DNA of 26,783 nucleotides. Source: Gammaproteobacteria bacterium (GTDB lineage Bacteria; Pseudomonadota; Gammaproteobacteria; UBA9214). The notes under the pieces were generated by a model. That model worked only from the letters and a program-made list of their open reading frames with translations, did no database searches and was not told the DNA's origin. Below are positions 1-26,225 of this stretch, in pieces. How positions within the stretch are numbered: the first letter of the stretch is position 1; each line of letters opens with the position of its first letter. The translations under genes were made by a program, and so were the position numbers. The stretch is taken from the NCBI GenBank assembly GCA_003454335.1, contig DMKK01000244.1:5030-31812 (forward strand). Direction: 5' to 3'.

Positions 1-354
1 GTGCTGTTCCTGTGGACGCCCCCCCACTTCTGGAGCCTGGCATTCAAGTACCGGGATGACTATGCAAAGGTAGGAGTGCCGATGTTACCGGTTGTGGTTA
101 ATGAACAAACCGCAGCCTATATCATCCTCGGGCACACAGTGCTGCTGGCAGGGCTCTCGCTGCTGCCGGTGATGTATGGTTTGGGATGGATCTATTTTTT
201 GGGCGCTGCAAGCGGCGGCGCCTGGTTTGTATGGACCAGCATCGCGCTGGCGCGTAACCCGTCTCCCGAGACGGCCATGACCAACTTCCACGCCTCGTTG
301 CTGCAACTGAGCCTGCTGTTGATCGCCGCCATTCTGGATGCCTGGCTGATCTAA
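1..354 (+). CDS. cyoE: Protoheme IX farnesyltransferase (heme o synthase), C-terminal part; truncated by the window edge
   Basis: [29 protein letters not shown] is the characteristic CyoE/CtaB/COX10 motif, followed by hydrophobic helices and the F..S..QL terminal segment. Confidence 0.93.
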
Positions 355-473: not shown

Positions 474-580
474 CATTTAATAATCGGGTCCTTTGCTTTA
501 GCCGCATTAACCACCGCGCATTACTATCAAGACGTAGCGTTATATAATTAGAATATTACCTGATATGAAATTTGAGACTT

Positions 581-1480
581 ATGATTACCACCAGTAACAA
601 AACACCCGCGTACCTCCTGCTCTTCATGGGCCTGCTCTTCATGGGCAGTGCTGTTGCGGTCGAGGAACATGCACATGAAATGGAGGCAATCACGACGGAA
701 CCCATGCAGGATCACGATCCCGCCATGCACCAGCATGAAAAGGGCGCGGACTATAACGAAAAGGCCGCCCTTGCCCTGAGTCAGGCGGCCATGGGACAGA
801 CGGTTGGCGATTACGACTTCCTGGACGGCAGTGGCAAACAAATAACGCTGGAATCCATGCGCGGTAAACCGGTGCTGATCAGCCTGATCTACACCAGCTG
901 CTACCATATCTGTCCAACGGTCACGACCAACCTGGAAAAAATCGTCGAGATTGCGCGCGACGCCCTCGGTGATGACAGTTTTTCAGTACTGACCATTGGC
1001 TTCGACACCCCGAACGATACCCCGGACCGGATGCGGCTGTTTGCCAAACAGCGCAACATTGACATCAACAACTGGCATTTTGTCAGTGCCAGCGCCGCGA
1101 CCATGAAAGACCTGGCCCAAGACCTGGGCTTCAGTTATTTCAGTACGGGCAAGGGCTTTGACCATATGATCCAGGCCACGCTGATCGACGCAGAGGGCAA
1201 GATCTACCGGCAAATTTACGGCATGGCCCCCGAACCACCCGCCCTGGTGGAACCCCTCAAGGAAATACTCTATGGCAAACAGGTGGCTGCTACACCGATC
1301 GAGGGCTGGATAAACAATATAAAGCTGTTTTGCACCGTATACGATCCAGCCACAGGCAGGTATCATTTCGACTACTCCTTATTTATCGCCCTCGGCGTCG
1401 GTCTGCTGCTGCTTGGCGGGACCGCCTGGTTTATTGTCAGTGCCTGGCGCAAGTCGCCAGCGCCCGGATCGGTAAAATAA
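581..1480 (+). CDS. SCO1/SenC-family copper chaperone with C-terminal membrane anchor
   Basis: CxxxC (SCYHICP), downstream His (FDHMIQ), thioredoxin-like SCO pattern (VLTIGFDTPNDTPDRM), N-terminal signal/TM, His/Met-rich segment, C-terminal TM; ATG at 581 preferred over TTG 572. Confidence 0.9.
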   Translation: MITTSNKTPAYLLLFMGLLFMGSAVAVEEHAHEMEAITTEPMQDHDPAMHQHEKGADYNEKAALALSQAAMGQTVGDYDFLDGSGKQITLESMRGKPVLISLIYTSCYHICPTVTTNLEKIVEIARDALGDDSFSVLTIGFDTPNDTPDRMRLFAKQRNIDINNWHFVSASAATMKDLAQDLGFSYFSTGKGFDHMIQATLIDAEGKIYRQIYGMAPEPPALVEPLKEILYGKQVAATPIEGWINNIKLFCTVYDPATGRYHFDYSLFIALGVGLLLLGGTAWFIVSAWRKSPAPGSVK

Positions 1481-1505: not shown

Positions 1506-3077
1506 ATGAGCGGCTTGCGTACTGTTGCCAAGGCAGCCTTTGAATCCGTCGAGAATTTTTTCGACCGGGCCTTCGGTCCAGAGTTAAATCCCATGCACCA
1601 GCTGGGCGCACTTGGCTGGTTCTTTTACTGGATTGTCATTGTCAGCGGCGTCTATCTGTATATCTTTTTCGACACCGGCATTCACCAGGCCTATGAATCC
1701 CTGGAATACATAACCAACGTGCAGTGGTATGCCGCGGGCGTCATGCGCAGCCTGCACCGCTATGCATCTGACGCCCTGATCATCGTCATGATACTGCACC
1801 TGGTGCGCGAATTTGTCATGGACCGCTACCGGGGTGCCCGCTGGTTTTCCTGGTTTACCGGGGTGCCCCTGCTGTGGTTCGTATTTGCCTGCGGCATCAC
1901 CGGCTACTGGATGGTCTGGGACGTACTGGCCCAGTACATTGCCATCACCACCACGGAGTGGCTCGACACCCTGGGCATCTTTGGTGAAACGATTGCCCGG
2001 AATTTCCTGAATCCTGACATCCTCAGCGGCCGTTTCTTTACTCTCATGGTGTTCATTCACATTGCCGTGCCGCTGTTCCTGCTGCTGGCCATGTGGATTC
2101 ACATCCAGCGTCAGAACTATGCCAAGGTAAACCCGCCGAAGGGACTCGCTATTGGTACCCTGGGCATGCTGCTGGTACTGTCATTTATCAAACCGGCTGT
2201 CAGCCAGCCCCCGGCAGACCTGAGTATTGTGCCGGCAGTCATCGACCTTGACTGGTTTTACCTGGCGGCCTACCCCTTGCTCGATATCATTCCCGGGCTG
2301 ACCATGTGGGCAATCGCCGTGGGCGGCTCCCTGTTACTGGCGCTCCTGCCCTGGCTGCCACCCCGTCGCCGCGAGGCAGCAGCCGTGGTTGACCTCGACA
2401 ACTGCAACGGTTGCGGCCGCTGCGTGGATGACTGCCCGTTTACCGCAGTAATCCTTCAGCAGCGCACGGATGACACCGCTTTTTCGGAAGAGGCCATTGT
2501 CAACAGTAGCCTGTGCACCAGTTGCGGCATCTGCGTAGGCGCCTGCCCGACGTCCACCCCCTTCCGGCGCACCTCCGAACTGGTTCCGGGCATCGACCTG
2601 CCGGATCAGGGCATGCAGGCCTTGCGTGATGATGTCCTTGCGGCAGCGGCCAAACTGTCCGGAGAGACACGCGTCATTGTTTTCGGCTGCAAGAACGGCC
2701 CCGACCTGCAGCGGCTCAACGGACCCGCTGTTGCCGCCATGGAGCTGCAGTGCATTGGTATGCTGCCACCCTCCTTTGTCGATTTTCTCATCACCCGCCA
2801 TCACGTGGATGGGATCTTCCTGACGGGCTGTACCCTGGGAGACTGTCACAATCGGCTTGGCAACAAGTGGACAGAGCAGCGACTGGCCGGGGAGCGTGAC
2901 CCCTACCTGCGCGAGCGCGTGCCACGCGAACGCATCGGCAAATTCTGGGCCGGCCTGACCCACAACAAACGCCTGTCACAGGAAGTGGCCGCGTTCCAGG
3001 AACGGATCAAGGGACTCCCGCCTTACCATCGTCCGTCTCGCAAGCCGTCCGGTCAACAGCCCGCGGAGAGCAGCTAA
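1506..3077 (+). CDS. Fusion: cytochrome b/b6 N-terminal domain + 2x[4Fe-4S] ferredoxin + MvhD/FlpD-like Fe-S domain
   Basis: Heme b His pairs in RSLHRYASD..ILHLVR and FIHIAVP..WIHIQ; CNGCGRCVDDCP and CTSCGICVGACP; C-terminal FGC..LQCIGMLPPSFVD..DGIFLTGCTLGDCH..GN matches the MvhD pattern. Confidence 0.88.
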   Translation: MSGLRTVAKAAFESVENFFDRAFGPELNPMHQLGALGWFFYWIVIVSGVYLYIFFDTGIHQAYESLEYITNVQWYAAGVMRSLHRYASDALIIVMILHLVREFVMDRYRGARWFSWFTGVPLLWFVFACGITGYWMVWDVLAQYIAITTTEWLDTLGIFGETIARNFLNPDILSGRFFTLMVFIHIAVPLFLLLAMWIHIQRQNYAKVNPPKGLAIGTLGMLLVLSFIKPAVSQPPADLSIVPAVIDLDWFYLAAYPLLDIIPGLTMWAIAVGGSLLLALLPWLPPRRREAAAVVDLDNCNGCGRCVDDCPFTAVILQQRTDDTAFSEEAIVNSSLCTSCGICVGACPTSTPFRRTSELVPGIDLPDQGMQALRDDVLAAAAKLSGETRVIVFGCKNGPDLQRLNGPAVAAMELQCIGMLPPSFVDFLITRHHVDGIFLTGCTLGDCHNRLGNKWTEQRLAGERDPYLRERVPRERIGKFWAGLTHNKRLSQEVAAFQERIKGLPPYHRPSRKPSGQQPAESS

Positions 3078-3081
3078 AATC

Positions 3082-3585
3082 ATGGCTAGCATCTTTCAAT
3101 ACATCGGTCAGGCAATCGCCTATACACTGTTTGCTGTGTTCGTAGGCTACTTTGCCACCAAACCCGCCTATACCAACTTCCCACCGGACAAGGCACAGAT
3201 CAAGCTCAGTTTCGGCCATGCCGGCGAACACGCGACCGAATGCCGGCGCCTGACACAAGAGGAGCTGAACCAGTTGGCGCCCAACATGCGCCGTCCACTT
3301 GACTGTCCGCGTGGACGGCTGCCGGTACTGATCGAGCTGGAACTGGATGGCGAGCTGCTCTACAGTGAAGCATTACCACCCTCGGGCCTGGCAGGAGACG
3401 GCGTCTCTACTGCCTATAAAACATTTGCCGTAGACCCCGGCCAGCACCAGCTGGTTGCCCGGCTGCGCGACAGCAATCGCACCGAAGGTTTTGATTATGA
3501 GAAGACGTCCGAGATTACACTGTCACCGCAACAAAACTTTGTAGTTGATTTTCACCCGTCCAGGGACGGGTTCCTGTTTTTGTGA
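3082..3585 (+). CDS. Membrane-anchored hypothetical protein, probable partner of the cytochrome b fusion
   Basis: Starts 4 nt after the upstream stop; N-terminal TM helix; two Cys (ECRR, DCPR) in a soluble domain; normal codon usage. Confidence 0.8.
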   Translation: MASIFQYIGQAIAYTLFAVFVGYFATKPAYTNFPPDKAQIKLSFGHAGEHATECRRLTQEELNQLAPNMRRPLDCPRGRLPVLIELELDGELLYSEALPPSGLAGDGVSTAYKTFAVDPGQHQLVARLRDSNRTEGFDYEKTSEITLSPQQNFVVDFHPSRDGFLFL

Positions 3586-3592
3586 GGCTGTC

Positions 3593-3985
3593 ATGGTACT
3601 GATTGAATGGAAAAAGGAGTTCGAGGTAGGCGTACCCGATGTCGATCACGAGCATCAGGAGATCATCGACCTTATCAATAAGCTGCATGACGCCATGCGC
3701 GGTGAACATGCAACCATTTCCGTGATGGACTTCCTGGGCGAAATCTACGCGCATGTCTCGGCACACTTTGCGCTTGAAGAAAAAATCATGCGAACCAAAA
3801 GGTATGACCAGTATACGGATCATAAGGCAGACCATGAACGACTGCTTGATGAGCTGCGCGACATTATGGATGACTACGAAGAAAACGCCTACTTCAGCGA
3901 CGAGGAATTTGCCGGCCATGTCGAGCGCTGGTTCACCGAACACTTCAAGACAAAGGATGCACGCTTGCATAAGCACCTTGGGTAA
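3593..3985 (+). CDS. Bacteriohemerythrin (single-domain, di-iron)
   Basis: W....VG...VDHEH, HFALEE, HKADH and HFKTKD ligand motifs; ATG at 3593 after GAGG. Confidence 0.92.
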   Translation: MVLIEWKKEFEVGVPDVDHEHQEIIDLINKLHDAMRGEHATISVMDFLGEIYAHVSAHFALEEKIMRTKRYDQYTDHKADHERLLDELRDIMDDYEENAYFSDEEFAGHVERWFTEHFKTKDARLHKHLG

Positions 3986-4119: not shown

Positions 4120-4599
4120 ATGTTCTCCGCATCCCCCCGTACCCTGAAGATTCTGGCTGCCCTGCTCTGGTACAGCGGCGCCATCATTCTGCTGACCAAG
4201 GGAACCACCCTGCTGCTTGAAGCTGATGCACTGCAACCGGGACGCCACTGGACATGGCTGACCGTCATTCTGGGGCTGTCCATTGGCGTGCTGAAGATAA
4301 AATTCATATTCCGCCGGGCTTGTCAGAAGAACCTCACGAGAATATCGCTTCTCAGTGAACCAAAAATATGGCAGTTTTACCGACCCGGATTCCTGTTGTT
4401 TCTGGCCGCCATGATTATTATCGGCTCGACCCTGTCCAGGATGGCGCATGGCAACTATCCATTCCTGATAGCCATGGCCGTACTGGATTTCAGTCTTGCC
4501 ACGGCATTGTTCGGCAGCAGCTACCTGTTCTGGCAACAACAGGCCTTTAAAAAAAGCTGTAGATCAGAAACTCCAATCAACGGAACAGATTCAAAATGA
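4120..4599 (+). CDS. Hypothetical inner-membrane protein (about 4 TM)
   Basis: 159-aa hydrophobic ORF; ATGA overlap with the next gene suggests translational coupling. Confidence 0.75.
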   Translation: MFSASPRTLKILAALLWYSGAIILLTKGTTLLLEADALQPGRHWTWLTVILGLSIGVLKIKFIFRRACQKNLTRISLLSEPKIWQFYRPGFLLFLAAMIIIGSTLSRMAHGNYPFLIAMAVLDFSLATALFGSSYLFWQQQAFKKSCRSETPINGTDSK

Positions 4600-5990
4600 G
4601 CATTGATCACTATAGCGATAGCGAAACCACCAACAAACTGGCACTGGAAATGCCGGGTGAACGGATGCGCCGCCTGACCACTGGCTGGTTGTTGCTGGCG
4701 CTGGGTTCACTGGTGGTTGGTGGACTGCTGACGATCGTGATCGTCCTGTCCCGCACACCCTATGTGCAGGATATTTTTCCCTGGGTCGACCTGTTCCATA
4801 CTGCGCTCGTGGTCCATGTTGATTTGACCGTACTGGTCTGGTTCCTGGGCATGGCCGGCGTTATCTGGAGTGTTAACAGTCAAAGCAGCTGCCTCCGCTG
4901 CGGTTGGGTAGCGTTATTCCTCTGTGCTACGGGCTCCATCATCATTTCCCTGTCGCCGTTTCTGGGATCGGCCAGCCCCTTGATGATCAACTATATTCCA
5001 ATCCTGGACGATCCCCTGTTTTTTTCGGGATTAATCATATTCGGGAGCGGCTTTCTCGCGCTGGTACTGCGCGGGCTGTTTTTTTCCCGCCCGATCGGCA
5101 TGCGTGTCACCGGACAGGGTGCCTTGCGTTTTGGCTTGTTTTCGGCTCTCATTTCCGCGGTGACTGCACTGGGTGCACTGCTTGGTTCCTGGCTTGGCAT
5201 ACCGGCATCAATACAGGGCGAGTATTACTATGAGCTGTTGTTCTGGGGCGGCGGACATACCCTGCAGTTCGTCCATATCCAGCTGATGCTGGTCTGCTGG
5301 CTGTGGCTGGCTACCGAGTCCGGAATTGCCTCCAGGCTAACACCGCGAACAGTGTTGTTGCTGTTCGCCTTTGGTCTGATCCCCGTGCTGATGACCCCTG
5401 TCGCCTATTTTATGTACGATGTGGGATCGGCAGAACATCAAATCGCGATGACCTGGTTGATGAAGTTCGGAGGTGGTCTGGCGGCACTGCCGATCAGTCT
5501 TGTTGTCATTTTCAATCTTGTCAATTCCTTGCAGAGCCCGGCAAGTCCCAGTCCGCAACGATCCGCGCTGTTTTCATCCATAATCCTGTTTGGGGTAGGC
5601 GGCATCATCGGTTTCATGATCGAGGGCAGTAACGTCACGGTCCCGGCCCACTACCATGGCTCCATTGTTGCCGTGACGCTGGCGTATATGGGTGTGACCT
5701 ATCACCTCCTGCCACTGCTCGGGTTCAGACGCCCCACAGGAAAGCTGGTTGTCCTGCAGCCCTGGATCTACGCCAGCGGACAGCTTATGCACGTAATCGG
5801 TCTGGCCTGGTCGGGCGGCTACGGCGTACAACGAAAAACCGCCGGAGGCGCCCAGGCCCTGGACGGGATAGAAAAGGTTGCCGGCATGGGATTAATGGGG
5901 CTGGGCGGTCTGGTTGCCGTTGTCGGTGGCATCCTGTTTCTGGTGATCGTCTTCAAGGCCATGTGGCCGGAAAAAAAGAACTCCCTGTAG
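4596..5990 (+). CDS. Heme-copper oxidase subunit I-like 12-TM protein lacking the CuB His-His motif
   Basis: About 12 hydrophobic segments; His in helix II (VVHVD), WGGGH in helix VI, AHYH in helix X, GVQRK in the G.PRR position; no HH after helix VII and Phe at the cross-link Tyr position (HTLQF vs HPEVY). Confidence 0.8.
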   Translation: MSIDHYSDSETTNKLALEMPGERMRRLTTGWLLLALGSLVVGGLLTIVIVLSRTPYVQDIFPWVDLFHTALVVHVDLTVLVWFLGMAGVIWSVNSQSSCLRCGWVALFLCATGSIIISLSPFLGSASPLMINYIPILDDPLFFSGLIIFGSGFLALVLRGLFFSRPIGMRVTGQGALRFGLFSALISAVTALGALLGSWLGIPASIQGEYYYELLFWGGGHTLQFVHIQLMLVCWLWLATESGIASRLTPRTVLLLFAFGLIPVLMTPVAYFMYDVGSAEHQIAMTWLMKFGGGLAALPISLVVIFNLVNSLQSPASPSPQRSALFSSIILFGVGGIIGFMIEGSNVTVPAHYHGSIVAVTLAYMGVTYHLLPLLGFRRPTGKLVVLQPWIYASGQLMHVIGLAWSGGYGVQRKTAGGAQALDGIEKVAGMGLMGLGGLVAVVGGILFLVIVFKAMWPEKKNSL

Positions 5991-7813: not shown

Positions 7814-9121
7814 TTAATCCGCCTCCATTGCAGCAATACTGGATCGGGTGCCGGCGTATAGCAGTGCCGCATTGATCATCAGGAATGCCAGCCAGCCAAA
7901 GTCCAGCAACAATGCCAGCCCGGCAATGCCCGTCAGCGGGCCGTATATGACCGCACCCAGCATGGCCGCAATGGCCACCACGTGGATTCGCAACAACCAT
8001 AGCGACCGGGCCGGGCTGATAAAACCATGCATATTGGGCAGGCTCCTGATCGCCCTGATATTGGCCGAACAGTGTCGCTGCAGATGAAGAAAGGCAAGAA
8101 ATGGCACTATCTTCTGCAACATCCCCATGATAATGGAGCAAGCAAACCCGAGGACCATCAACACGCCCGCCAGCAACACCCCCCTTGCAGGGCTCACGAC
8201 TGAACCGGCAATGTCCGGCAACAGGAAAACCAGCCAGAACAGCAACACCGCAAGGATCAGGCAGGACAATCCCAACTGCCAGAAACGCACAGATACATCC
8301 ATCAACCTGCGTTTTCTGTGTTGTAACAAACGCAGGCTGAACCCGGCATAAACCAGCACCGCCACACCAATAACGATAACCAGCCCGGCTACCGCCACAG
8401 GCGTCTGCAGCAACGCGAGCAGCAGCAACCCCGTAAAGATCACCAGTGGTATAAACCGGGTCAACCTGGACGGGTAGTCGGGTGTGACCTGAAACATCGG
8501 TATAACCTGAAAGCTGATACCCATGATCAGGATCAGAACCCAACCGAGCAAAGCCCAGCTGACATGGAGCATTGTCAGGCTCAATGGGGATTCAAGCGGG
8601 TAGAGATAAGTCAGGGCACGGTAACAACCCAGGCCGATGGTGACCAGCAAGGCGGCGATTGCCAGCCGCATGGCATGGATACTGTCACCACCGGCGATGT
8701 TCGTGACGAGTTTGCTGCCAATGGCAACAATAAATCCGGCCAGGGCCATGGCCAGCAAGACAACGGCAACACCCAGCAGGAAATACTCACGAAACACAAA
8801 GCCTGCAGACAGACACAATACAGCGGCAACCATCAACAGATGCACAGCGAACGCAAGCGGAGTGCCGCCAGGGACTCGTTCACCACTGAGTACCGGCAAC
8901 AACTGGAACAGTGCCCCCAGCATGGTCATCGTCATAAAACCCAGCGTGAGCAGATGCGTCAGCGCTATTAACGCCGGATTCCAGTGGCTCGTCCACAGCT
9001 CCGAACCGCTGAACAGCAGCACCATTGCCGCCAGCATGCCGAAGCACGGTGCCGTCAGAAAAAACCGCAAGGGGATATGAATGGGTGGCAAGCTGTCCAG
9101 AGTAAGACCGGACATACGCAT
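7814..9121 (-). CDS. Polytopic membrane protein, NnrS-like/His-containing, associated with DUF2249
   Basis: About 12 TM; intramembrane His motifs (ALTHLLTLGF, MLHVSWALLGW..MG+SFQVIPMF, LQKIVPFL..LHL); TAATG overlap with the upstream gene. Confidence 0.75.
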   Translation of the reverse strand: MRMSGLTLDSLPPIHIPLRFFLTAPCFGMLAAMVLLFSGSELWTSHWNPALIALTHLLTLGFMTMTMLGALFQLLPVLSGERVPGGTPLAFAVHLLMVAAVLCLSAGFVFREYFLLGVAVVLLAMALAGFIVAIGSKLVTNIAGGDSIHAMRLAIAALLVTIGLGCYRALTYLYPLESPLSLTMLHVSWALLGWVLILIMGISFQVIPMFQVTPDYPSRLTRFIPLVIFTGLLLLALLQTPVAVAGLVIVIGVAVLVYAGFSLRLLQHRKRRLMDVSVRFWQLGLSCLILAVLLFWLVFLLPDIAGSVVSPARGVLLAGVLMVLGFACSIIMGMLQKIVPFLAFLHLQRHCSANIRAIRSLPNMHGFISPARSLWLLRIHVVAIAAMLGAVIYGPLTGIAGLALLLDFGWLAFLMINAALLYAGTRSSIAAMEAD

Positions 9122-9384
9122 TACGGGGCACCCCTGAACAAACGACTGATCATGTCCGTGTCCTGTTTATGCCAGATCAGAATATCGTATTTGGCGGTCT
9201 CGCCAGGCTGTGCCCGGTATTCAAGCTTGCGCTCATTGCAATAATCAAACAGGGGATAGGGAATCATCCGGTGTGCCATGCGCAGATACTCACCCGGCCG
9301 CAGCTCTGCAAGCAGCGACAGCGCCTGCACAAAAGGCATGGGTGCCGCCATCTCACTGGCATCGAGAAATTTTTCATCCAGCAT
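9121..9384 (-). CDS. DUF2249 / TusA-like small protein
   Basis: LDASEMAAPMPF..AL..L..L.PGEYL.M.H...PYPL pattern; GGAGA RBS before GTG/ATG; start trimmed from ORF 9474 to 9384. Confidence 0.75.
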   Translation of the reverse strand: MLDEKFLDASEMAAPMPFVQALSLLAELRPGEYLRMAHRMIPYPLFDYCNERKLEYRAQPGETAKYDILIWHKQDTDMISRLFRGAP

Positions 9385-9430
9385 CACGGTTTCTCCGTAT
9401 TTATCGTGAGCTTCCGTATACCGAAAATTG

Positions 9431-9862
9431 CTACTCCAGTTGCAGTTTCCCGACATAGTCAGCCGCATTGACAATTGACTCGTCCATCATCGGGTAAAGA
9501 ATCTGCTCTTCCTTTATATTGTGCTGCTGTATCAGCAGCATCAGCGTCTCGGCAAGTCCGAGAAACACCTGCTGATCCCGGGCTGCAAGTGCAGTGTGTA
9601 TCTGTTCCACCAGGATGCGTATTTGATCATGCTCCATGCGCATCATCTGTGTCGGCCCTGCCGGTCCGTTGACCTCTTCAAACGCGGGGAACAGCAACTT
9701 TTCCTCAAGCACGGTAATATGCTGATCCAGTACTCTGGAAAACTTGCGCCACGCATCTTTCGCACCGGGCCAGTCCGCATCGGCAACAGCCGCCTCGGCA
9801 CTGGCGAAATACCTGTCGCAGGTACGGTGACCTGCCGTCATCACTTCATCAATAGTTGTCAT
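9431..9862 (-). CDS. Hemerythrin-like HHE cation-binding domain protein
   Basis: H..CD, H....EE..LFP, GPT.MMR.EH, QHN.KEEQ+LYPM motifs; ATG 9862 after GAGAG (9880 is an alternative). Confidence 0.9.
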   Translation of the reverse strand: MTTIDEVMTAGHRTCDRYFASAEAAVADADWPGAKDAWRKFSRVLDQHITVLEEKLLFPAFEEVNGPAGPTQMMRMEHDQIRILVEQIHTALAARDQQVFLGLAETLMLLIQQHNIKEEQILYPMMDESIVNAADYVGKLQLE

Positions 9863-9913
9863 TTGGCTCTCTTTTGTCATAACGCACTCTGACAAACCCC
9901 CGGTGCACTCACA

Positions 9914-9927: not shown

Positions 9928-9984
9928 ACAGTATTTCTACGGACTACAGATGCAGTTTTCTGCCAGATTGCGTAAGCTGTGGCC

Positions 9985-10662
9985 ATGAGCACAAACAAGA
10001 TCATGCCCGATGAGCTGCGCCGACATCCCCTGTTTGGAGGACTGGATAATGACCAGCTCGCACAACTGATGGAAACCGCGCGGGTTATCCAGCTTGATGA
10101 GGGCCAGCAACTGTTTCAGTGCCAGCAGGAGGCCAGACAGTTTTTCATGGTACGCAGTGGCACCATCCGACTGTTCCTGTCGGCACCGGACGGTGCTGAA
10201 AAGGTGATCCACCTGATCGCTGCCGGTGAAACCTTTGCCGAGGCCATCACCTTTATGGAGGGCCAGATCTATCCCGTCAACGCCAGCGCCCTGGATGCCT
10301 GTGAGGTACTGGCCTTTTCCAACAAGGCCTACCGCACCATCTTGCACAGTTCAACCGACACCTGCTTCAGGCTGATGGCAGACATGAGCAAGTGGCTAAA
10401 GCGACAGATCACCGACATCGATGCGCTGACACTGCAAAACGCCACACTGCGCTTTACCAACTACCTGCTCCACCAGGTGCCGGCAGGTACCGAACACGAA
10501 GTTGCCATCACGCTCGGTGCGCCCAAGAATGTCATTGCTTCACGCCTCTCCATCCAGCCCGAATCCTTCTCCCGCATCCTGCGCAACCTGCAGAGCGAGG
10601 GGCATATCACGGTTGACGGTAACGTGATTTATATCAAGGACATCAATACCCTGGGTCAATAA
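9985..10662 (+). CDS. Crp/Fnr-family transcriptional regulator, Dnr-like (no N-terminal Fe-S Cys cluster)
   Basis: cNMP-like domain (GETFAEAITF..YPVNASAL), HTH with IASRLSIQPESFSRIL (E..SR recognises TTGAT boxes); lacks the FNR Cys motif. Confidence 0.88.
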   Translation: MSTNKIMPDELRRHPLFGGLDNDQLAQLMETARVIQLDEGQQLFQCQQEARQFFMVRSGTIRLFLSAPDGAEKVIHLIAAGETFAEAITFMEGQIYPVNASALDACEVLAFSNKAYRTILHSSTDTCFRLMADMSKWLKRQITDIDALTLQNATLRFTNYLLHQVPAGTEHEVAITLGAPKNVIASRLSIQPESFSRILRNLQSEGHITVDGNVIYIKDINTLGQ

Positions 10663-18662: not shown

Positions 18663-19043
18663 ATGATGCCCGATCAGGAAAAAACCCTGTATGAACGCCT
18701 TGGTGGCTACGATGCGATTGCCGCAGTAGCAGGCAACCTGCTGCCACGACTGGAGAACGACGCACAACTCGGACGTTTCTGGGCAAACCGGGGGGATGAC
18801 GGCATTGCGCGCGAAAAACAGTTACTGATCGATTACCTGTGTAGCAGCGCAGGCGGACCAATGCTGTATACCGGACGCGACATGCTGACCTCGCACAGGG
18901 GCATGGGCATCACCGAAAGTGACTGGCAGATATTTATCGAGCATATAAAGGCAACGCTGGCCGAATTCCAGGTGCCACAACAGGAGCAGGATGACGTGCT
19001 TGCCTTTATCGACAGCACCAGGGCCGATATTGTCGGCGTATAG
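18663..19043 (+). CDS. Group I truncated hemoglobin (trHbN/GlbN-like)
   Basis: TLYERLGG..AI, GGP..YTGRDM..SH.GM.IT..DW..F motifs; AGGAG RBS. Confidence 0.92.
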   Translation: MMPDQEKTLYERLGGYDAIAAVAGNLLPRLENDAQLGRFWANRGDDGIAREKQLLIDYLCSSAGGPMLYTGRDMLTSHRGMGITESDWQIFIEHIKATLAEFQVPQQEQDDVLAFIDSTRADIVGV

Positions 19044-19161: not shown

Positions 19162-22100
19162 ATGCGTATAGCCATACTTGAGCGGCCTATAGCACTACTA
19201 TGTTCCCTGTCAGCAGCCATGCTGCTGTCGACAACCGCCTGGTCAGCAATCACGACCATTAATCCCGGCCAGGACAACACTATGGCTGAGGAACTCCCGG
19301 ATAACAGCTCCGGGGAGTGCGATTCCATCTTCTCGGGAAACACGGATAACGGTATTGGCACTGCCCGGCGTGCATTGATGCAATTCGATCTCTCCAGCAT
19401 CCCTGCCGGCTCTACCATCAACAGTGTCACCCTGGAGATGAATGTAACCCGTGGCAGTAACCACGTCGATTCGACCTTCACCCTGCACCGGGTCACTATG
19501 GCCTGGGGAGAAGGCGCGAATACCTGCGGCCCCCGCGGCGGTGGCCAGGGTGAGGCCGCGGTGAATGGAGCCGCCACCTGGAACAATGCAGAAACAGGTA
19601 TCAATACCTGGAGCAATCCAGGCGGTGACTACAACGGCACTGCCAGCGGCAGCACGCTGGTCAACAGCACGACCCCGGTCTGGAGCAGCACCATCGACAT
19701 GGTCAGCGATGTCCAGGGCTGGCTGGATGGCACTATTAACAATTATGGCTGGATACTGATCGGTGACGAGACCATCAAGACCACCGCCCGGCGCTTCGAC
19801 AGTAGCGAAGGTGGAAGCCCTCCGGCACTGCTGGTGGACTTTACTCCGGTCGGACCGGTCGAGGCCTGCTGCGAGACAGACGGCTCCTGTTCCCTGGCGG
19901 TCCAGGGCCAGTGTTCGGATACACCTCTGCCGGGCATCAACAGCTGTGAACCCAACCAGTGTCCGCAGCCGACCGGCGCCTGCTGCAACCTGGACGAGAC
20001 CTGCTCGGATAACGTCGACCGCCTCCTCTGTGAGGATAATGGCGGCAGCTTCCAGGACGAAAACAGCAGCTGCGGCCAGGGCAACGTCGACTGCGGCCTG
20101 ACCCCATTTGTCGAGGCGCTGCCCATCCCATCGATCCTGCAGCCAACCGGCACCAGCCCTGATGGTTACCCTCAATATACCATCGCAGTGCAGGAAGCGA
20201 CCCAGAGCGTGCACCCCGAGCTGCCGAACACCAACCTGTGGACCTACAATGGCGCCTGGCCTGCCTCAACCATCGTGGCCACCCAGGGCCAGCCCATTGA
20301 AGTCATCTACCAGAACAACCTGTCTGCCGGTGGTGGCGGCAATCGCGGCAACACCCTGCTGGAAGTAGACACTTGTTCGCACGGCCCGAACGACTGGGGA
20401 GACTCCAAGCGTATTGTTACGCATTTACACGGTGCCCATGTGCCAGCCCGTGTTGATGGCCAGCCGGAGTACACCATCCTGCCAGGTGAAATCGACACGT
20501 ATGTATACCCCAATACCCAGGAGGCCGGTACGGTCTGGTACCACGATCATGCACTGGGCATCACCCGTCTGAATGTCTACGGTGGCATGGCCGGGTTCTA
20601 TCTCATTGCCGATGCCGAAGACACCCTGGCTTCGAACAACGCCTTCGGCCTGCCCAGCGGCCAGTACGAGATAGGCATGGCCATCCAGGATCGCACCTTC
20701 AACGAGGACGGTTCGCTGTTCTACAACGCCCAGTTGGAGGACGCCTTCAAGGGTGACAAGCTGCTGGTCAATGGCAAGGTGTGGCCGTTCCTCATGGTCG
20801 ACCAGGGCAAGTATCGTTTCCGGATACTGAATGGTTCACAGTCCCGCGACTACAGCCTGCGACTGGAGAACATCACTGATCCGGGTAATGATCCGAGCTT
20901 CACGCTGGTCGGTACCGACCTCGGCCTGGTCAGCGCGCCAATCGATCTTGGTAACAATTACGGTATCCAGGCTCCTGCCGAACGCATGGACATCGTGATC
21001 GACTTCGAGGGCTTCCCTACCGGTACCGAGATCATCCTGCGCAACGACGAACTAACCCCGCCGCTGCTGCCTAATGTGATGAAGTTTGTCGTAACGGGCA
21101 ACACTGGCTACACCGGGAGCATATCACCAACCCTGCGCACGGTGGATCCGCTGCAGGAGAGCTCCGCCGACGTCACCCGATACTTCCGCCTCGCAAAGGT
21201 TACTGCACCCTGTTCGAACGATCCGGGCCGCACCGTCAACGAGTGGCTGGTCGAATCGCTGGACGGGCCGGGTGGCAACGTGATTGGCGCACACTGGGAT
21301 GACCTGTCCGAATTCCCGATTCTTGGTAACCGCGAGGTGTGGGAGTTCGAAAACCCGACAAACTCCATGCACCCGATGCATGTCCACCTGGTGCGCTTTC
21401 AGATACTGAGCAAGACGGACCTCAATACGGGCCAGCCAATCCCGCTGGAGCCCTGGGAGGTCAACACCTGGAAGGATATCGTACGCATTCCGGCCAATGC
21501 CTCGGCGCGCATCATCATGGACTTCGAGGACTACCCCGGGCGCTTCCCGCAGCACTGTCATATCCTCGATCATGAAGACCACGAGATGATGCGGCAGTTC
21601 CAGACCCGCTATGATCCAGCCATATGCGACAATAATGGTAGCTGTGATCCGGGCGAGGACTGTCAAAGCTGTCCGAACGACTGCGTGCAGGTTAGTGGTG
21701 CCCTGTGCGGTAACGGACTGTGTGAAGGCGGTGATGGCGAAAACTTTACTACCTGTCCGGCAGATTGCGCCGGCAAGCAGACTGGTTCGGCATCCAAGCA
21801 ATTCAGCTGTGGATTTGACGACGGACAGGTCACCAACCCGATCGGATGTGGCGTCGATGTTAACGATGATCGCTGTATCGACGCAGGCAACAGTCTGTTC
21901 TGCCGTGTGACTGGACGCCTGTCGGCCTGCTGTGGTGACAAACTCTGCGAGGGTGCGGAGGACATCTCAAGCTGCAAGAACGACTGTGATCCCAATGTCT
22001 GCACGCCAACGGAACCGGGCGTGGAATACAGCTGTAGTGACGGCGAGGACAACAATTGCGACGGCCTGATCGACACGGCCGACCCGGACTGCCTGGACTC

Positions 22101-22575
22101 GGATGGCGACGGGCTGACCAATGCCTACGAGATCAATATTTCCGGGACCAACCCCACCAATATCGACAGCGATGGCGATGGACTGGTCGATGGTAATGAT
22201 GGCGTAGTGCTCGCCGGAACGGGTGACGTGGATGCCAACGGCGATGGTTTTGTCGATGGTGAGCAGACTGAGGGCACAGATCCGACTAAAGCGGACACCG
22301 ACGGTGATCTGCTCAACGACGGACTGGAGGTTGCCAACGGTTCCAATCCGCTTAACCCGCTCAGCTGGCCAATCCTGGCTGACGGGGATTGCGCACCCTA
22401 CGACGCACCAAACGCTCAGCTGGATGGAGGCGATCTGGTGGTCGCAATGCGGCTGGCACTGGGGCTGGAAACGACCCGGACACTGGAACTGGCACACTGT
22501 GACCTTGGCATACCCAACGGCGTTATCAATGCCGCTGACGTCCTCTTGCTGATACAGATGTTACAGTCGCCATAG
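19162..22575 (+). CDS. Large secreted multicopper oxidase (CotA/bilirubin-oxidase-like core) with DNRLRE-like, Cys-rich, TSP3-like and dockerin-like domains
   Basis: All Cu motifs present: THLHG, WYHDH, HPMHVH, HCHILDHEDHEMM; Sec signal peptide; RAL+QFDLSSIP.GSTI.SVTL; DxDxDG repeats; C-terminal paired GD...DGGD/D....NGVINAAD loops; GAGGAG RBS. Confidence 0.9.
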   Translation: MRIAILERPIALLCSLSAAMLLSTTAWSAITTINPGQDNTMAEELPDNSSGECDSIFSGNTDNGIGTARRALMQFDLSSIPAGSTINSVTLEMNVTRGSNHVDSTFTLHRVTMAWGEGANTCGPRGGGQGEAAVNGAATWNNAETGINTWSNPGGDYNGTASGSTLVNSTTPVWSSTIDMVSDVQGWLDGTINNYGWILIGDETIKTTARRFDSSEGGSPPALLVDFTPVGPVEACCETDGSCSLAVQGQCSDTPLPGINSCEPNQCPQPTGACCNLDETCSDNVDRLLCEDNGGSFQDENSSCGQGNVDCGLTPFVEALPIPSILQPTGTSPDGYPQYTIAVQEATQSVHPELPNTNLWTYNGAWPASTIVATQGQPIEVIYQNNLSAGGGGNRGNTLLEVDTCSHGPNDWGDSKRIVTHLHGAHVPARVDGQPEYTILPGEIDTYVYPNTQEAGTVWYHDHALGITRLNVYGGMAGFYLIADAEDTLASNNAFGLPSGQYEIGMAIQDRTFNEDGSLFYNAQLEDAFKGDKLLVNGKVWPFLMVDQGKYRFRILNGSQSRDYSLRLENITDPGNDPSFTLVGTDLGLVSAPIDLGNNYGIQAPAERMDIVIDFEGFPTGTEIILRNDELTPPLLPNVMKFVVTGNTGYTGSISPTLRTVDPLQESSADVTRYFRLAKVTAPCSNDPGRTVNEWLVESLDGPGGNVIGAHWDDLSEFPILGNREVWEFENPTNSMHPMHVHLVRFQILSKTDLNTGQPIPLEPWEVNTWKDIVRIPANASARIIMDFEDYPGRFPQHCHILDHEDHEMMRQFQTRYDPAICDNNGSCDPGEDCQSCPNDCVQVSGALCGNGLCEGGDGENFTTCPADCAGKQTGSASKQFSCGFDDGQVTNPIGCGVDVNDDRCIDAGNSLFCRVTGRLSACCGDKLCEGAEDISSCKNDCDPNVCTPTEPGVEYSCSDGEDNNCDGLIDTADPDCLDSDGDGLTNAYEINISGTNPTNIDSDGDGLVDGNDGVVLAGTGDVDANGDGFVDGEQTEGTDPTKADTDGDLLNDGLEVANGSNPLNPLSWPILADGDCAPYDAPNAQLDGGDLVVAMRLALGLETTRTLELAHCDLGIPNGVINAADVLLLIQMLQSP

Positions 22576-23149: not shown

Positions 23150-23782
23150 GTGAAGACCCGATTCAAACAATCACTGTTTATCACCGTTGCATTCGTCGCC
23201 CTGTTATTTGGTATTGAACTGCTTGATCGCAGTCTGAACCTGCAACTCCACCGCTTCGGGGTCTACCCGCTGGATCCGGTTGGTCTGCGAGGGATACTGT
23301 TTGCGCCCCTGATACACGGCACCTGGTACCACCTGCTATCCAACAGTTTTGCACTGCTGATTCTTGGCACCGCGCTACTATACGGCTACCCGCGTGCCGC
23401 AAAACCCGTGCTGGCACTTGTCTATATTGGCTCCGGCATCGGTGTCTGGCTGTTCGCCCGGCACAGCTATCATTTCGGTGCCAGCGGTCTGACGCATGGC
23501 ATGATGTTTTTTATTTTCACCACCGGCATCCTGCGCCGGGACAAATTGTCTGTTGCCCTGTCCCTGATTGTGTTTTTACTGTACGGCAACATGGTATGGA
23601 GTATCTTTCCGCAGGAACCGGGCATCTCCTATGAAAGTCATTTCTTCGGTGCCGTCACCGGGATACTGGCGGCGTTCCTGCTCCGTGACCGTGACCCGGC
23701 GCTCCCGGTAAAGACCTATGACTGGGAAGATGAAGAGACTGACAGCGAGGCTGATGATCCACTTAAGGAACGGCAGGATTAA
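23150..23782 (+). CDS. Rhomboid-family intramembrane serine protease
   Basis: H...YHL..N, GASG catalytic Ser, S.ESHFFGA catalytic His; GTG 23150 preferred as start. Confidence 0.92.
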   Translation: MKTRFKQSLFITVAFVALLFGIELLDRSLNLQLHRFGVYPLDPVGLRGILFAPLIHGTWYHLLSNSFALLILGTALLYGYPRAAKPVLALVYIGSGIGVWLFARHSYHFGASGLTHGMMFFIFTTGILRRDKLSVALSLIVFLLYGNMVWSIFPQEPGISYESHFFGAVTGILAAFLLRDRDPALPVKTYDWEDEETDSEADDPLKERQD

Positions 23783-25109: not shown

Positions 25110-25613
25110 CTAGTAACGCCCGTGTTCCCTGGCAATGTAATTGGTCAATTCCACCTGCTGTACATTCATATTCCGCAAGATACGGTGCACGGTACGGATA
25201 ATGGCACGCATGACCTTGTAGACCAGGTCCGGATCTTTATCCAGCAGACTCTCGAAACTGGTGCGGTCCAGCCGCAACAGTTCACAGTTGCCCATGGCAC
25301 GCAGGCCGGCAGAATGTTCCACACCGTCAATAAATCCCAGTTCGCCGAGTATGTCGCCTTCCCTGATGATCTGCAGACCAACGTATTCACCCTTACCCGT
25401 GTGCGTAACCACCTCCATATGGCCTTTCGCCAAAACATGTAGCGCCTCATCCTTTTGCCCTTCCTCGAGCAGAAAGGCCCGGTCCTTGATACCACAGGCG
25501 GTCATAACACTTGCCAGCAACTCACACTGCGCATCGCTGAGTTCATCGCCCAGGGGCGAGGCCTTGATGGCATCTATGCTGACAGCTATATCGGTGCATG
25601 CATTGTCGTTCAT
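25110..25613 (-). CDS. Stand-alone cyclic-nucleotide-binding domain protein
   Basis: L.V+..G.+EV, G..+GE+GF+DG..HSA.+RA, DP.L.YKVMRAI.R pattern; no HTH; GAGGA RBS before ATG 25613. Confidence 0.85.
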   Translation of the reverse strand: MNDNACTDIAVSIDAIKASPLGDELSDAQCELLASVMTACGIKDRAFLLEEGQKDEALHVLAKGHMEVVTHTGKGEYVGLQIIREGDILGELGFIDGVEHSAGLRAMGNCELLRLDRTSFESLLDKDPDLVYKVMRAIIRTVHRILRNMNVQQVELTNYIAREHGRY

Positions 25614-25641
25614 AATGGATTCCTCGCAGACACAGGCCTGC

Positions 25642-26181: not shown

Positions 26182-26225
26182 AAAATAAACTCCGGTATTG
26201 CAGGTTAATTTACATGAAGGATAAT

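What the first reader, a model, noticed from the sequence alone, without database searches (positions are those of the whole stretch)
1506..3585. Cytochrome b fused to a 2x[4Fe-4S] ferredoxin and an MvhD/FlpD domain, with a dedicated partner gene
Seen: four heme b His in cytochrome b spacing; the Qo-site PEWY position reads LDWFY; two CxxCxxCxxxCP motifs; an MvhD-like domain with four Cys (FGC, LQC, TGC, GDC). The next gene is a TM-anchored protein with two Cys. Established: bc complexes oxidise quinol towards a periplasmic Rieske protein; MvhD [2Fe-2S] feeds HdrA flavin bifurcation. Inference: a membrane conduit linking the quinone pool (or a second cytochrome b) to cytoplasmic low-potential Fe-S partners, possibly for reverse electron transport or for coupling sulfur/H2 oxidation. 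No Rieske or HdrA gene is in the window.
Basis: partly seen in the sequence, partly recalled or inferred. Interest (0 to 1): 0.75.

Follow-up and report, generated by a model that had tools for sequence, protein, structure and literature searches.

The report
Cytochrome b-iron-sulfur partner of eNOR
The gene is real: a membrane cytochrome b fused to iron-sulfur domains inside the cell. It belongs to a widespread family, already catalogued but never tested at the bench. With a small periplasmic partner, it almost always accompanies the eNOR type of nitric-oxide reductase, and it probably carries electrons across the membrane for that N2O-producing system.

Summary
Window 1506-3077 (+) encodes a 523-aa protein with:
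- a six-helix, two-haem cytochrome b domain (H84/H98, H185/H199);
- LDWF at the Qo (PEWY) position;
- two CxxCxxCxxxCP motifs;
- an MvhD/FlpD domain with four Cys.

It is not the bc1 cytochrome b; a normal Rieske + cytochrome b pair lies on another contig.

It is a conserved member of an eNOR-type nitric-oxide reductase cluster. The order is CuA subunit II, subunit I (Gln replaces the active-site Tyr), haem O synthase, SCO1, this gene, a 167-aa partner, hemerythrin. About 80 species keep this order. In a 300-genome sample, eNOR and this gene co-occur in 31 of 33 genomes that have either.

The partner is supported as a subunit in two ways. A complex model scores 0.86 against 0.00 for the best control. 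In many lineages the partner is fused to the C-terminus.

Sister proteins replace the Fe-S tail with NAD(P)H-flavin reductase modules. This favours electron flow from cytoplasm to periplasm.

The architecture was catalogued in 2014 as the 'PDWF-FeS clade'. A 2026 preprint noted it in an eNOR operon. This scan has found it several times before on other DNA. It is an ordinary member of an interesting but uncharacterised family.

The parts
1..354 (+). 3' part of the haem O synthase gene (CtaB/CyoE). The gene starts upstream of the window at contig C86:4547. The two eNOR genes precede it outside the window: CuA subunit II at C86:2296-2829 and subunit I at C86:2846-4522.
   Evidence: UbiA Pfam hit and TIGR01473 haem O synthase hit. 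eNOR subunits.
572..1480 (+). SCO1/SenC copper chaperone. It has a His/Met-rich N-terminal stretch, a CYHIC motif and an additional C-terminal TM helix.
   Evidence: PF02630, E 5.3e-14. It lies directly upstream of the cyt b-FeS gene in 76 of about 80 loci. One representative protein is a natural SCO1-cyt b fusion, P0214.
1506..2375 (+). Cytochrome b domain of the fusion (residues 1-290). It has six TM helices, haem ligands H84/H98 and H185/H199, Qo-position motif L248-D-W-F251, and a shortened D-E loop.
2382..2555 (+). 2x[4Fe-4S] ferredoxin domain (residues 293-350), with two CxxCxxCxxxCP motifs.
   Evidence: All eight Cys are invariant down to 26% identity.
2673..3077 (+). MvhD/FlpD-like domain (residues about 390-504) with C395, C416, C442 and C447, followed by a short variable tail and the stop codon.
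   Evidence: PF02662, 41.6 bits against a cut-off of 22.3. Aligns to solved MvhD chains 9sw2_D and 5odc_D. The Fer4+MvhD part is co-linear with the HdrA2 C-terminus (NF040770).
3082..3585 (+). 167-aa partner subunit. It has an N-in TM helix (residues 2-26) and a periplasmic beta-sandwich with a probable C54-C75 disulfide. No cofactor motif was seen.
   Evidence: No Pfam or NCBIfam hit. AF2 pLDDT 92. No PDB fold match at E<=1e-3. Present in 79 of 82 loci. Complex model 0.86 against 0.00 for the best control. Fused to cyt b-FeS in many lineages.
3593..3985 (+). Bacteriohemerythrin with no signal peptide, so cytoplasmic. It is a conserved last gene of the module.
   Evidence: NF033749, 100.8 bits against a cut-off of 84. 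Present in 77 of 82 loci.
4120..4599 (+). 159-aa polytopic membrane protein of unknown family. Its end overlaps the start of the next gene by 4 nt.
   Evidence: Matched in only one other locus (L008).
4596..5990 (+). Divergent haem-copper-oxidase subunit I-like protein of 464 aa. It keeps haem-ligand-type His (H74, H352/H354) and one CuB-type His (H221) but lacks the HH pair. It is an optional extra member of the module.
   Evidence: PF00115, 49.3 bits against a cut-off of 34.8. Next to the module in 6-8 of 80 loci and in L092. Naturally fused to this cyt b clade in P0253, 49% identity. Found in all 32 sampled genomes that have cyt b-FeS.
9979..10662 (+). Crp/FNR-family regulator, a possible regulator of the NO island.
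   Evidence: cNMP_binding + HTH_Crp_2. A regulator of this kind lies near the module in 24 of about 80 loci. No regulatory link was tested.

Best explanation
Window 1506-3077 encodes the cytochrome b-iron-sulfur subunit of an accessory membrane complex of the eNOR-type nitric-oxide reductase system. Its obligate partner is the 167-aa protein encoded at 3082-3585.

Shown (by sequence, models and comparative genomics):
- Six TM helices carry two b haems.
- The C-terminal 2x[4Fe-4S] and MvhD-type (probably [2Fe-2S]) domains lie in the cytoplasm.
- The partner's TM helix packs on helices B and E.
- The partner's disulfide-bearing beta-sandwich caps the periplasmic cd/ef loops, including the D-W-F motif. 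This is roughly where a Rieske head would sit, but the partner shows no cofactor motif.
- The gene pair is co-inherited with eNOR.

Inferred:
- The complex is a transmembrane electron conduit running [2Fe-2S] -> 2x[4Fe-4S] -> haem bH -> haem bL.
- It most likely takes electrons from a cytoplasmic donor and delivers them at the periplasmic face or within the membrane. The acceptor could be eNOR (CuA or low-spin haem), the HCO-like protein at 4596-5990, or the remodelled Qo-type pocket.
- This would give NO reduction an electron supply independent of bc1/cytochrome c.
- The identities of the cytoplasmic donor and the final acceptor are unknown.
For: Domains and ligands.

Topology: K+R is 10 on the N side and 2 on the P side. 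Helices come from the model's DSSP.

eNOR identity of the neighbouring oxidase:
- Six canonical His and GHSSQQ, that is H-x3-Q where O2 reductases have H-x3-Y.
- Q is the eNOR signature in Table A4 of PMC8756737.
- The CuA motif CNEFCGIGHHQM is in subunit II.

Synteny: subunit II, subunit I, (CtaB), SCO1, cyt b-FeS, partner, hemerythrin in about 80 species.

Co-occurrence in 300 sampled Pseudomonadota genomes:
- 32 have cyt b-FeS, 32 have eNOR, and 31 have both.
- The two co-occur even where unlinked. In G010 they lie about 930 kb apart on one contig, with the cyt b-FeS + partner pair still together.

The link holds across phyla. In Turneriella parva (CP002959) a 28%-identical fused form lies next to an eNOR subunit I that is 52% identical to ours.

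Partner, complex model:
- ipSAE 0.86 against a best control of 0.00.
- This mark was reached by 58 of 80 solved complexes and 2 of 110 mismatched pairs. The counts hold only roughly, because my own alignments were used.
- The runs agree in at least 91% of contacts, and the partner's pLDDT is at least 84.

Partner, natural fusions:
- About 64 of the 150 best 50%-identity clusters are 630-750 aa, long enough to carry the partner at the C-terminus. The C-terminal partner homology was checked directly for three: clear for P0130 and P0152, weak for P0220. It was also seen for the long forms aligned.
- Forms with cyt b + partner only also exist.

Direction: the same cyt b clade (41-55% identity) carries other tails.
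- Flavodoxin-FAD-NAD (CPR-like) in P0167, inside an eNOR island.
- Fer2-FAD-NAD (FNR-like) in P0168 and P0274, followed by a partner homologue.
These modules normally oxidise NAD(P)H.

Genome context: the genome has NirS, a source of NO. The window is an NO-response island with NnrS, a globin, hemerythrins and an FNR-type regulator.

Literature: a cyt b-[FeS] protein of the Ferrigenium straubiae eNOR operon was detected in the proteome under denitrifying Fe(II)-oxidising growth (preprint 10.64898/2026.01.22.701106).
Against: - No biochemical data exist for any member.
- eNOR keeps a CuA subunit and works in vitro with ascorbate/TMPD (PMC11214002). It does not obviously need a private donor.
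- No cytoplasmic donor gene is conserved next to the module. Only hemerythrin is.
- The Qo-position region is strongly conserved (D139, P230, D249 invariant). This fits a quinone or metal site better than a passive wire.
- Some relatives lack any cytoplasmic module, so the core job may lie entirely in the membrane.
- The AF2 model of the whole protein was poor (pLDDT 50). Cluster-to-haem distances are therefore unknown.
- Direct contact with eNOR was not tested.
- Kin are not independent. The 31 co-occurrences come from about 19 genera.
Confidence: 0.5

Rival explanations
1. Rieske-less quinol-oxidising module with electron bifurcation (reverse electron transport). One electron goes to the very oxidising eNOR branch. 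The other goes through bL, bH and the Fe-S chain to reduce a low-potential cytoplasmic acceptor such as ferredoxin or NAD(P)+.
For: - The Qo-position motif and surrounding loop are invariant or nearly so.
- The partner caps that pocket at a Rieske-like position.
- Many hosts appear to be chemolithoautotroph-type lineages that need reverse electron flow (Acidiferrobacterales, Sulfurifustaceae, Woeseiaceae).
- The preprint 10.64898/2026.01.22.701106 proposes a supercomplex coupling NO reduction to NAD+ reduction.
- SoxC of SoxABCD is a precedent for a cytochrome b homologue working with a haem-copper oxidase without a Rieske protein (weak NF041076 hit; the rest is established knowledge).
Against: - The partner has no cofactor motif. 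Its two Cys are lost together in one subclade, as a disulfide would be. No high-potential first acceptor is therefore evident at the pocket.
- A diflavin CPR-like tail in a sister protein acts as an NADPH oxidiser in all known cases (established knowledge).
- Moving the second electron inward against the membrane potential to about -320 mV is thermodynamically demanding (inference).
- The D-E loop that lines the Qi site is deleted.
Confidence: 0.2
2. Maturation factor rather than respiratory donor. The complex would be a transmembrane reductase that exports cytoplasmic electrons. These would reduce Cu(II)/Fe(III) or the SCO1/CuA thiols in the periplasm, or support O2-dependent haem A(s) synthesis together with hemerythrin. 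On this reading the complex is needed to build eNOR, not to run it. It would work like the eukaryotic FRE/STEAP metalloreductases.
For: - The gene sits among biogenesis genes (CtaB, SCO1; in some loci CtaA, CtaG, PCuAC).
- SCO1 is directly upstream almost everywhere, and one representative is a SCO1-cyt b fusion.
- Sister proteins carry NAD(P)H-flavin modules, as FRE/NOX/STEAP reductases do.
- Two invariant Asp (D139, D249) lie near the outer haem side and could bind a metal.
- eNOR uses a modified haem A whose synthesis needs O2 (PMC11214002), and a hemerythrin is conserved in the module.
Against: - CtaA is adjacent in only 10 of about 80 loci.
- Other CuA oxidases mature without such a protein (established knowledge).
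- In family f42 the cyt b-FeS + partner pair lies far from both eNOR and SCO1.
- The cyt b clade is also fused to an HCO-like haem protein. This points to electron transfer between haem proteins.
Confidence: 0.2
3. Ordinary cytochrome b of a bc1/b6f complex that happens to be fused to ferredoxin-like domains.
For: The best solved matches are cytochrome b6 and cytochrome b (E down to 2e-14). The four His are in canonical spacing.
Against: - No Rieske or cytochrome c1/f gene lies in any of about 80 loci.
- The genome has its own Rieske + cytochrome b pair on contig C85.
- There are only six helices, and the C-terminal cytochrome b domain is below threshold.
- The D-E loop is deleted and the Qo motif is changed.
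- The protein falls in the Rieske-less 'PDWF-FeS' clade of Kao & Hunte 2014.
Confidence: 0.02

Closest known systems
'PDWF-FeS clade' of cytochrome b (Kao & Hunte 2014, Genome Biol Evol, PMC4122944)
   Same: [quoted passage not shown] The Qo motif is xDWF, and no Rieske protein is in the cluster. [quoted passage not shown] I found the Turneriella protein as a 28%-identical relative.
   Different: The first motif residue here is Leu rather than Pro (LDWF). The 2014 paper catalogued the architecture only. It gave no function, no partner subunit and no eNOR link.
Cytochrome b-[Fe-S] genes of the Ferrigenium straubiae eNOR operon (bioRxiv 10.64898/2026.01.22.701106)
   Same: Same operon type (eNOR II, eNOR I, haem O synthase, SCO1, a gene of unknown function) with cytochrome b-[Fe-S] proteins. 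The proteins were detected in the proteome under denitrifying growth.
   Different: That operon also has a cyt b-[FeS]-FAD-NADH paralogue, which this window lacks. The authors call the cyt b genes 'rather unusual', whereas they accompanied eNOR in 31 of 32 sampled eNOR genomes here. Sequence identity to those proteins was not measured.
Cytochrome b6 + subunit IV (b6f) / cytochrome b (bc1)
   Same: Fold family (PF00033), four His ligands, helices A-F, and a recognisable Qo-position motif.
   Different: There is no Rieske or cytochrome c1/f partner and no helices G-H. The D-E loop is shortened. Cytoplasmic Fe-S domains and a cofactor-less periplasmic cap are added.
MvhD and the HdrA2 C-terminus (Fer4 + MvhD) of methanogens
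   Same: The C-terminal half is co-linear with HdrA2 residues 571-773 (NF040770, E 1.7e-19). It aligns to solved MvhD chains. It works like an Fe-S wire that hands electrons on.
   Different: No hydrogenase or HdrABC partner was found. The N-terminal CCxxC of MvhD is reduced to a single Cys. The module is attached to a membrane cytochrome.
NarI/NarH, HdrE/HdrD and QmoC-type dihaem b + Fe-S modules; NOX/FRE/STEAP transmembrane reductases (functional analogues only)
   Same: Two b haems span the membrane and are wired to cytoplasmic Fe-S or flavin modules. Sister proteins with NAD(P)H-flavin tails have a NOX/FRE-like layout.
   Different: The membrane fold is unrelated: cytochrome b/b6 type, not NarI or ferric-reductase type. 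No Pfam hit to those families appeared.
SoxC of the Sulfolobus SoxABCD quinol oxidase
   Same: A cytochrome b homologue encoded with and working for a haem-copper oxidase without a Rieske protein. There is a weak NF041076 hit (E 1.1e-10, far below cut-off).
   Different: SoxC has no Fe-S domains. Its oxidase lacks CuA and reduces O2. The two are not close relatives.

Membership tests
Cytochrome b superfamily (PF00033) | Profile match above the curated cut-off, and four His ligands on helices B and D spaced 14 apart | tested here: met
   61.2 bits against a cut-off of 27.2. H84/H98 and H185/H199 are invariant and align to the His of the genome's own cytochrome b.
Cytochrome b of a Rieske/cytochrome b (bc1 or b6f) complex | Encoded with and working with a Rieske iron-sulfur protein | tested here: not met
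   No Rieske gene in the window or in about 80 related loci. The genome's Rieske gene sits next to a different, canonical cytochrome b on contig C85.
Cytochrome b of a Rieske/cytochrome b (bc1 or b6f) complex | Full C-terminal part (helices E-H or subunit IV, PF00032) and a canonical Qo motif P-E/D/V-W-Y | tested here: not met
   PF00032 reaches only E 0.049, 14.3 bits against a cut-off of 20.7. There are six helices. The motif is L-D-W-F.
'PDWF-FeS' clade (Kao & Hunte 2014) | Cytochrome b fused to a non-Rieske Fe-S module (4Fe-4S + MvhD), xDWF at the Qo position, no Rieske gene in the cluster | tested here: met
   The clade's named member Turneriella parva was recovered as a homologue.
2x[4Fe-4S] bacterial ferredoxin domain | Two CxxCxxCxxxCP motifs | tested here: met
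   Residues 300-311 and 337-348. All eight Cys are invariant. Cluster binding itself is not testable here.
MvhD/FlpD (PF02662) | Profile match above cut-off with conserved cluster-ligand Cys | tested here: met
   41.6 bits against a cut-off of 22.3. C395, C416 and C442 are invariant to 26% identity. C447 is invariant in the close family but lost in one distant subclade.
MvhD/FlpD (PF02662) | Works with a hydrogenase and/or HdrA | tested here: not met
   FlpD occurs only in this gene in the 72%-complete genome. No Hdr or hydrogenase gene is conserved in the loci. A [NiFe] hydrogenase fragment at the window's far end is 23 kb away, on the other strand, and is not part of the conserved set.
eNOR gene cluster (accessory member) | Neighbouring oxidase has the eNOR signature: six canonical His, Gln at the cross-linked Tyr position, CuA subunit II | tested here: met
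   GHSSQQ, SAHH, GHFH and TAHG in subunit I. CuA motif in subunit II. Signature as in Table A4 of PMC8756737. No phylogenetic placement was done.
eNOR gene cluster (accessory member) | Conserved synteny and co-occurrence with eNOR | tested here: met
   Same gene order in about 80 species. Among 300 sampled genomes, 31 have both, 1 has cyt b-FeS only and 1 has eNOR only.
eNOR gene cluster (accessory member) | Physical or functional interaction with eNOR; NO reductase activity of the oxidase | not testable with these tools
   Needs purification or genetics.
sNOR cluster norSY-senC-orf1 of ammonia oxidisers | Asn at the active-site Tyr position of subunit I | tested here: not met
   The position is Gln. 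sNOR = N and eNOR = Q per PMC8756737.

The most novel reading that the evidence does not exclude
The cytochrome b + 167-aa partner core is a modular 'electron socket' of the eNOR system. Interchangeable cytoplasmic plugs (Fer4-MvhD, Fer2-FNR, a diflavin reductase, or none) feed it. This would turn a CuA-type haem-copper NO reductase into a self-contained enzyme driven by NAD(P)H or ferredoxin and bypassing bc1/cytochrome c. In the reverse sense, it could be a Rieske-less Qo-type bifurcating device that uses NO reduction to drive low-potential reduction. Either would be a new kind of respiratory complex for a major N2O-forming enzyme.
Probability: 0.3. Interest if true: 0.8.

Novelty: new member of a known kind. 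Interest (0 to 1): 0.45.

Why it matters
eNOR is reported to be among the commonest NO reductases in environmental data, and it makes N2O (PMC11214002). A two-protein membrane complex carrying two haems and probably three Fe-S clusters is co-inherited with it. If that complex supplies eNOR's electrons or builds it, models of the energetics and regulation of denitrification in many uncultured Proteobacteria are missing a component. The family also shows a whole cytochrome b, Qo-type pocket included, reused without a Rieske protein. For this window itself the result is an annotation. The gene is an ordinary member of that family, not a new architecture.

Tried and rejected
1. sNOR 'orf1'. I tested whether the gene is 'orf1' of the norSY-senC-orf1 cluster of ammonia oxidisers. 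Rejected: the oxidase has Gln, not Asn, at the Tyr position.
2. AF2 model of the 523-aa protein from a 14-sequence alignment. It was poor (pLDDT 50). I used it only for helix positions and ran no fold search on it.
3. Foldseek of the partner's confident model against the PDB. No match at E<=1e-3; only generic beta-sandwiches came up.
4. phmmer of the 464-aa HCO-like protein against PDB sequences. Nothing found.
5. Haem A synthase link. CtaA is adjacent in only 10 of about 80 loci, so I kept this only inside the maturation rival.
6. Hdr/hydrogenase link. FlpD is unique to this gene in the genome. The CCG-domain and [NiFe] hydrogenase hits lie elsewhere or at the far end of the window, and neither is conserved with the module.
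7. The partner's Cys pair as a metal site. Rejected in favour of a disulfide, because C54 and C75 are lost together in one subclade.
8. P0136. This is a cyt b with a 190-aa tail of no family. The tail is low-complexity and does not match the partner; it is probably a frameshifted gene call.
9. P0180. This X464-to-cyt b 'fusion' has a junk-like linker and may be an artefact. I rely on P0253 instead.
10. Literature searches for a functional study of the fusion found none.
Full report
**What is there**

The window lies on contig C86 of a 72%-complete genome. ORF 1506-3077 (+) encodes 523 residues. Pfam finds:
- Cytochrome_B at residues 23-200 (61.2 bits, cut-off 27.2);
- two 4Fe-4S motifs within residues 293-350;
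- FlpD/MvhD at residues 405-504 (41.6 bits, cut-off 22.3);
- only a sub-threshold trace of the C-terminal cytochrome b domain.

NCBIfam shows that the C-terminal half is co-linear with the Fer4+MvhD end of HdrA2. The best solved relatives are cytochrome b6 for the N-terminal part and MvhD for the C-terminal part.

The haem-ligand His (H84/H98, H185/H199) and both exact CxxCxxCxxxCP motifs are in the sequence. So are C395, C416, C442 and C447. All are invariant in close homologues. All but C447 remain invariant down to 26% identity.

Aligned to the genome's own canonical cytochrome b, L248-D-W-F251 falls on its P-L-W-Y Qo motif. The D-E loop is about 26 residues shorter.

Six helices and a K+R count of 10 on the N side against 2 on the P side place the Fe-S domains in the cytoplasm.

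**It is not the bc1 cytochrome b**

A Rieske gene followed by a normal cytochrome b gene lies on contig C85. No Rieske gene occurs near this gene in any related locus.

**The real context is an eNOR operon**

I fetched the 5 kb upstream of the window. It holds:
- a 177-aa cupredoxin subunit II with the CuA motif CNEFCGIGHHQM;
- a 558-aa haem-copper subunit I with all six canonical His, and GHSSQQ where O2 reductases have H-x3-Y;
- the start of the haem O synthase gene.

Gln at that position is the published eNOR signature; sNOR has Asn (PMC8756737, Table A4). eNOR from Rhodothermus marinus has been shown to be an NO reductase that uses a modified haem A (PMC11214002).

The gene order here is eNOR II, eNOR I, CtaB, SCO1, cyt b-FeS, 167-aa protein, hemerythrin. 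Eighty loci from different species in the genome collection keep this order almost without exception.

In an even sample of 300 Pseudomonadota genomes:
- 32 have the cyt b-FeS protein and 32 have eNOR subunit I;
- 31 have both;
- one genome has only cyt b-FeS (fragmented assembly, 730 contigs) and one has only eNOR (360 contigs).

The positives come from about 19 genera, so they are not independent events. In one family the two genes are often unlinked. In G010 they are about 930 kb apart, while the cyt b-FeS + partner pair stays together. They still co-occur in those genomes.

The link also holds in another phylum. Turneriella parva has a 28%-identical form beside an eNOR subunit I that is 52% identical to ours, together with SCO1, CtaA, a NirK-like gene and NnrS.

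The genome in hand encodes NirS. The rest of the window is an NO-response island.

**The 167-aa partner**

It has no Pfam or NCBIfam family. AlphaFold gives a confident model (pLDDT 92) of an N-terminal TM helix plus a beta-sandwich. There is no significant PDB fold match. C54, C75, R77, R79, D106, G107 and Y112 are invariant among 33 homologues.

Complex model:
- The model with the cyt b-FeS protein scores ipSAE 0.86 against a best control of 0.00.
- That mark was reached by 58 of 80 solved complexes and 2 of 110 mismatched pairs. The counts hold only roughly, because my own alignments were used.
- The runs agree in at least 91% of contacts, and the partner's pLDDT is at least 84.
- The interface puts the partner's TM helix on helices B and E.
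- It puts the beta-sandwich on the cd and ef loops, including D249-W250-F251. This is the periplasmic face over the Qo-type pocket.

Independent support comes from natural fusions:
- About 64 of the 150 best 50%-identity clusters are 630-750 aa, long enough to carry the partner at the C-terminus. I checked the C-terminal partner homology directly for three of them: clear for P0130 and P0152, weak for P0220. It also shows in the long forms aligned.
- This arrangement agrees with the N-in, C-out topology.

The two Cys are lost together in one subclade, as expected for a periplasmic disulfide rather than a metal site.

**A modular family**

The same cytochrome b clade occurs with other tails:
- flavodoxin-FAD-NAD, a diflavin reductase (P0167), inside an eNOR island with SCO1, CtaG, PCuAC and NnrS;
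- Fer2-FAD-NAD (P0168, P0274), followed by a partner homologue of 38% identity;
- the partner alone, with no cytoplasmic module (P0208, P0190);
- a homologue of the 464-aa HCO-like protein of window 4596-5990 (P0253, 49% identity);
- SCO1 at the N-terminus (P0214).

The core is therefore cytochrome b plus partner, and the cytoplasmic module is exchangeable. Two of the alternatives are modules that normally oxidise NAD(P)H. That is my main reason for preferring electron flow from cytoplasm to periplasm.

**Mechanism and rivals**

- Best reading (confidence 0.5): a transmembrane conduit running [2Fe-2S], 2x[4Fe-4S], bH, bL that serves the eNOR system with cytoplasmic electrons. The donor and the immediate acceptor are unknown.
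- Rival 1 (0.2): a Rieske-less Qo-type quinol oxidiser that bifurcates electrons.
- Rival 2 (0.2): a FRE/STEAP-like periplasmic reductase or maturation factor working with SCO1 and hemerythrin.
- Rival 3 (0.02): an ordinary bc1 cytochrome b.

The strongly conserved Qo-position region and the forms without a cytoplasmic tail count against a purely passive wire.

**Novelty**

Kao & Hunte (2014) already described cytochromes b carrying a 4Fe-4S domain and an MvhD domain, with PDWF and no Rieske protein. They named this the 'PDWF-FeS clade'. A 2022 paper lists such a protein in a neighbourhood table. A 2026 preprint notes cyt b-[FeS] genes in an eNOR operon and reports the proteins in a proteome. 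No functional study was found.

This scan has reported the same family several times on other DNA, with the same reading. Those notes gave me the Kao & Hunte lead, which I checked myself. The present copy is an ordinary member.

I could not tell from those notes whether three points had been seen before: the widespread partner fusion, the exchangeable NAD(P)H-flavin tails, and the link to the 464-aa HCO-like protein.

Noticed in passing
window 4596-5990 (+), with 4120-4599 (+): A 464-aa haem-copper-oxidase subunit I-like protein. It keeps haem-ligand-type His (H74, H352/H354) and one CuB-type His (H221) but lacks the HH pair. A 159-aa membrane protein of no family precedes it. Homologues occur in 61 of 300 sampled genomes, including all 32 that have cyt b-FeS. 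One natural protein fuses this family to the cyt b domain (P0253). No PDB sequence relative was found.
   Followed up: partly
G105:C1 (L086 5777-7306 and 7361-8953); also G069, G137, G159, G174, G219: In one family of small (about 2 Mb) genomes the cyt b-FeS gene is tandemly duplicated between SCO1 and the partner gene. The copies are 43-52% identical to the window's protein. A heterodimeric cytochrome b is possible.
   Followed up: partly
window 7814-9121 (-), 9121-9474 (-), 9431-9895 (-): A trio on the minus strand: a hemerythrin-domain protein (weak YtfE-like hit), DUF2249, and a 435-aa protein of no family. The same trio (hemerythrin, DUF2249, 434-aa protein) lies in the eNOR island of an unrelated metagenome contig, L092. 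Homology of the two large proteins was not checked.
   Followed up: no
window 18663-19043 (+), 19162-22575 (+), 23779-24975 (-), 25110-25679 (-): Further NO- or copper-related genes: a truncated globin, a 1137-aa multicopper oxidase with CBM96/DNRLRE and TSP3 repeats, NnrS (331 bits) and a second cNMP-binding regulator. Together with the eNOR cluster they make the window look like an NO-response island.
   Followed up: no
window 25642-26229 (-) and 26226-26783 (-): HupE/UreJ, and the C-terminal 185 residues of a group-1-type [NiFe] hydrogenase large subunit that runs off the end of the contig. It is not conserved with the cyt b-FeS module, so its nearness to an 'MvhD' domain looks coincidental.
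   Followed up: partly
contig C86:3-1511 (-), upstream of the window (L005): A third haem-copper subunit I-like gene (Pfam COX1, 213 bits) runs off the start of the contig, divergent from the eNOR genes. It has no NCBIfam hit at E<=1e-5. Some bases nearby read N.
   Followed up: no
window 572-1480 (+): The SCO1 protein is unusual. It has a His/Met-rich stretch after the signal anchor and a second TM helix at the C-terminus, preceded by a CTVYDPATGRYHFDYS stretch.
   Followed up: no
alignment A3 (distant homologues P0182, P0185, P0188, P0246, P0266, P0272): One distant subclade with long N-terminal extensions has lost the fourth MvhD Cys (C447). In most of its members it has also lost both partner Cys. 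Its third cluster may be ligated differently or be absent.
   Followed up: no
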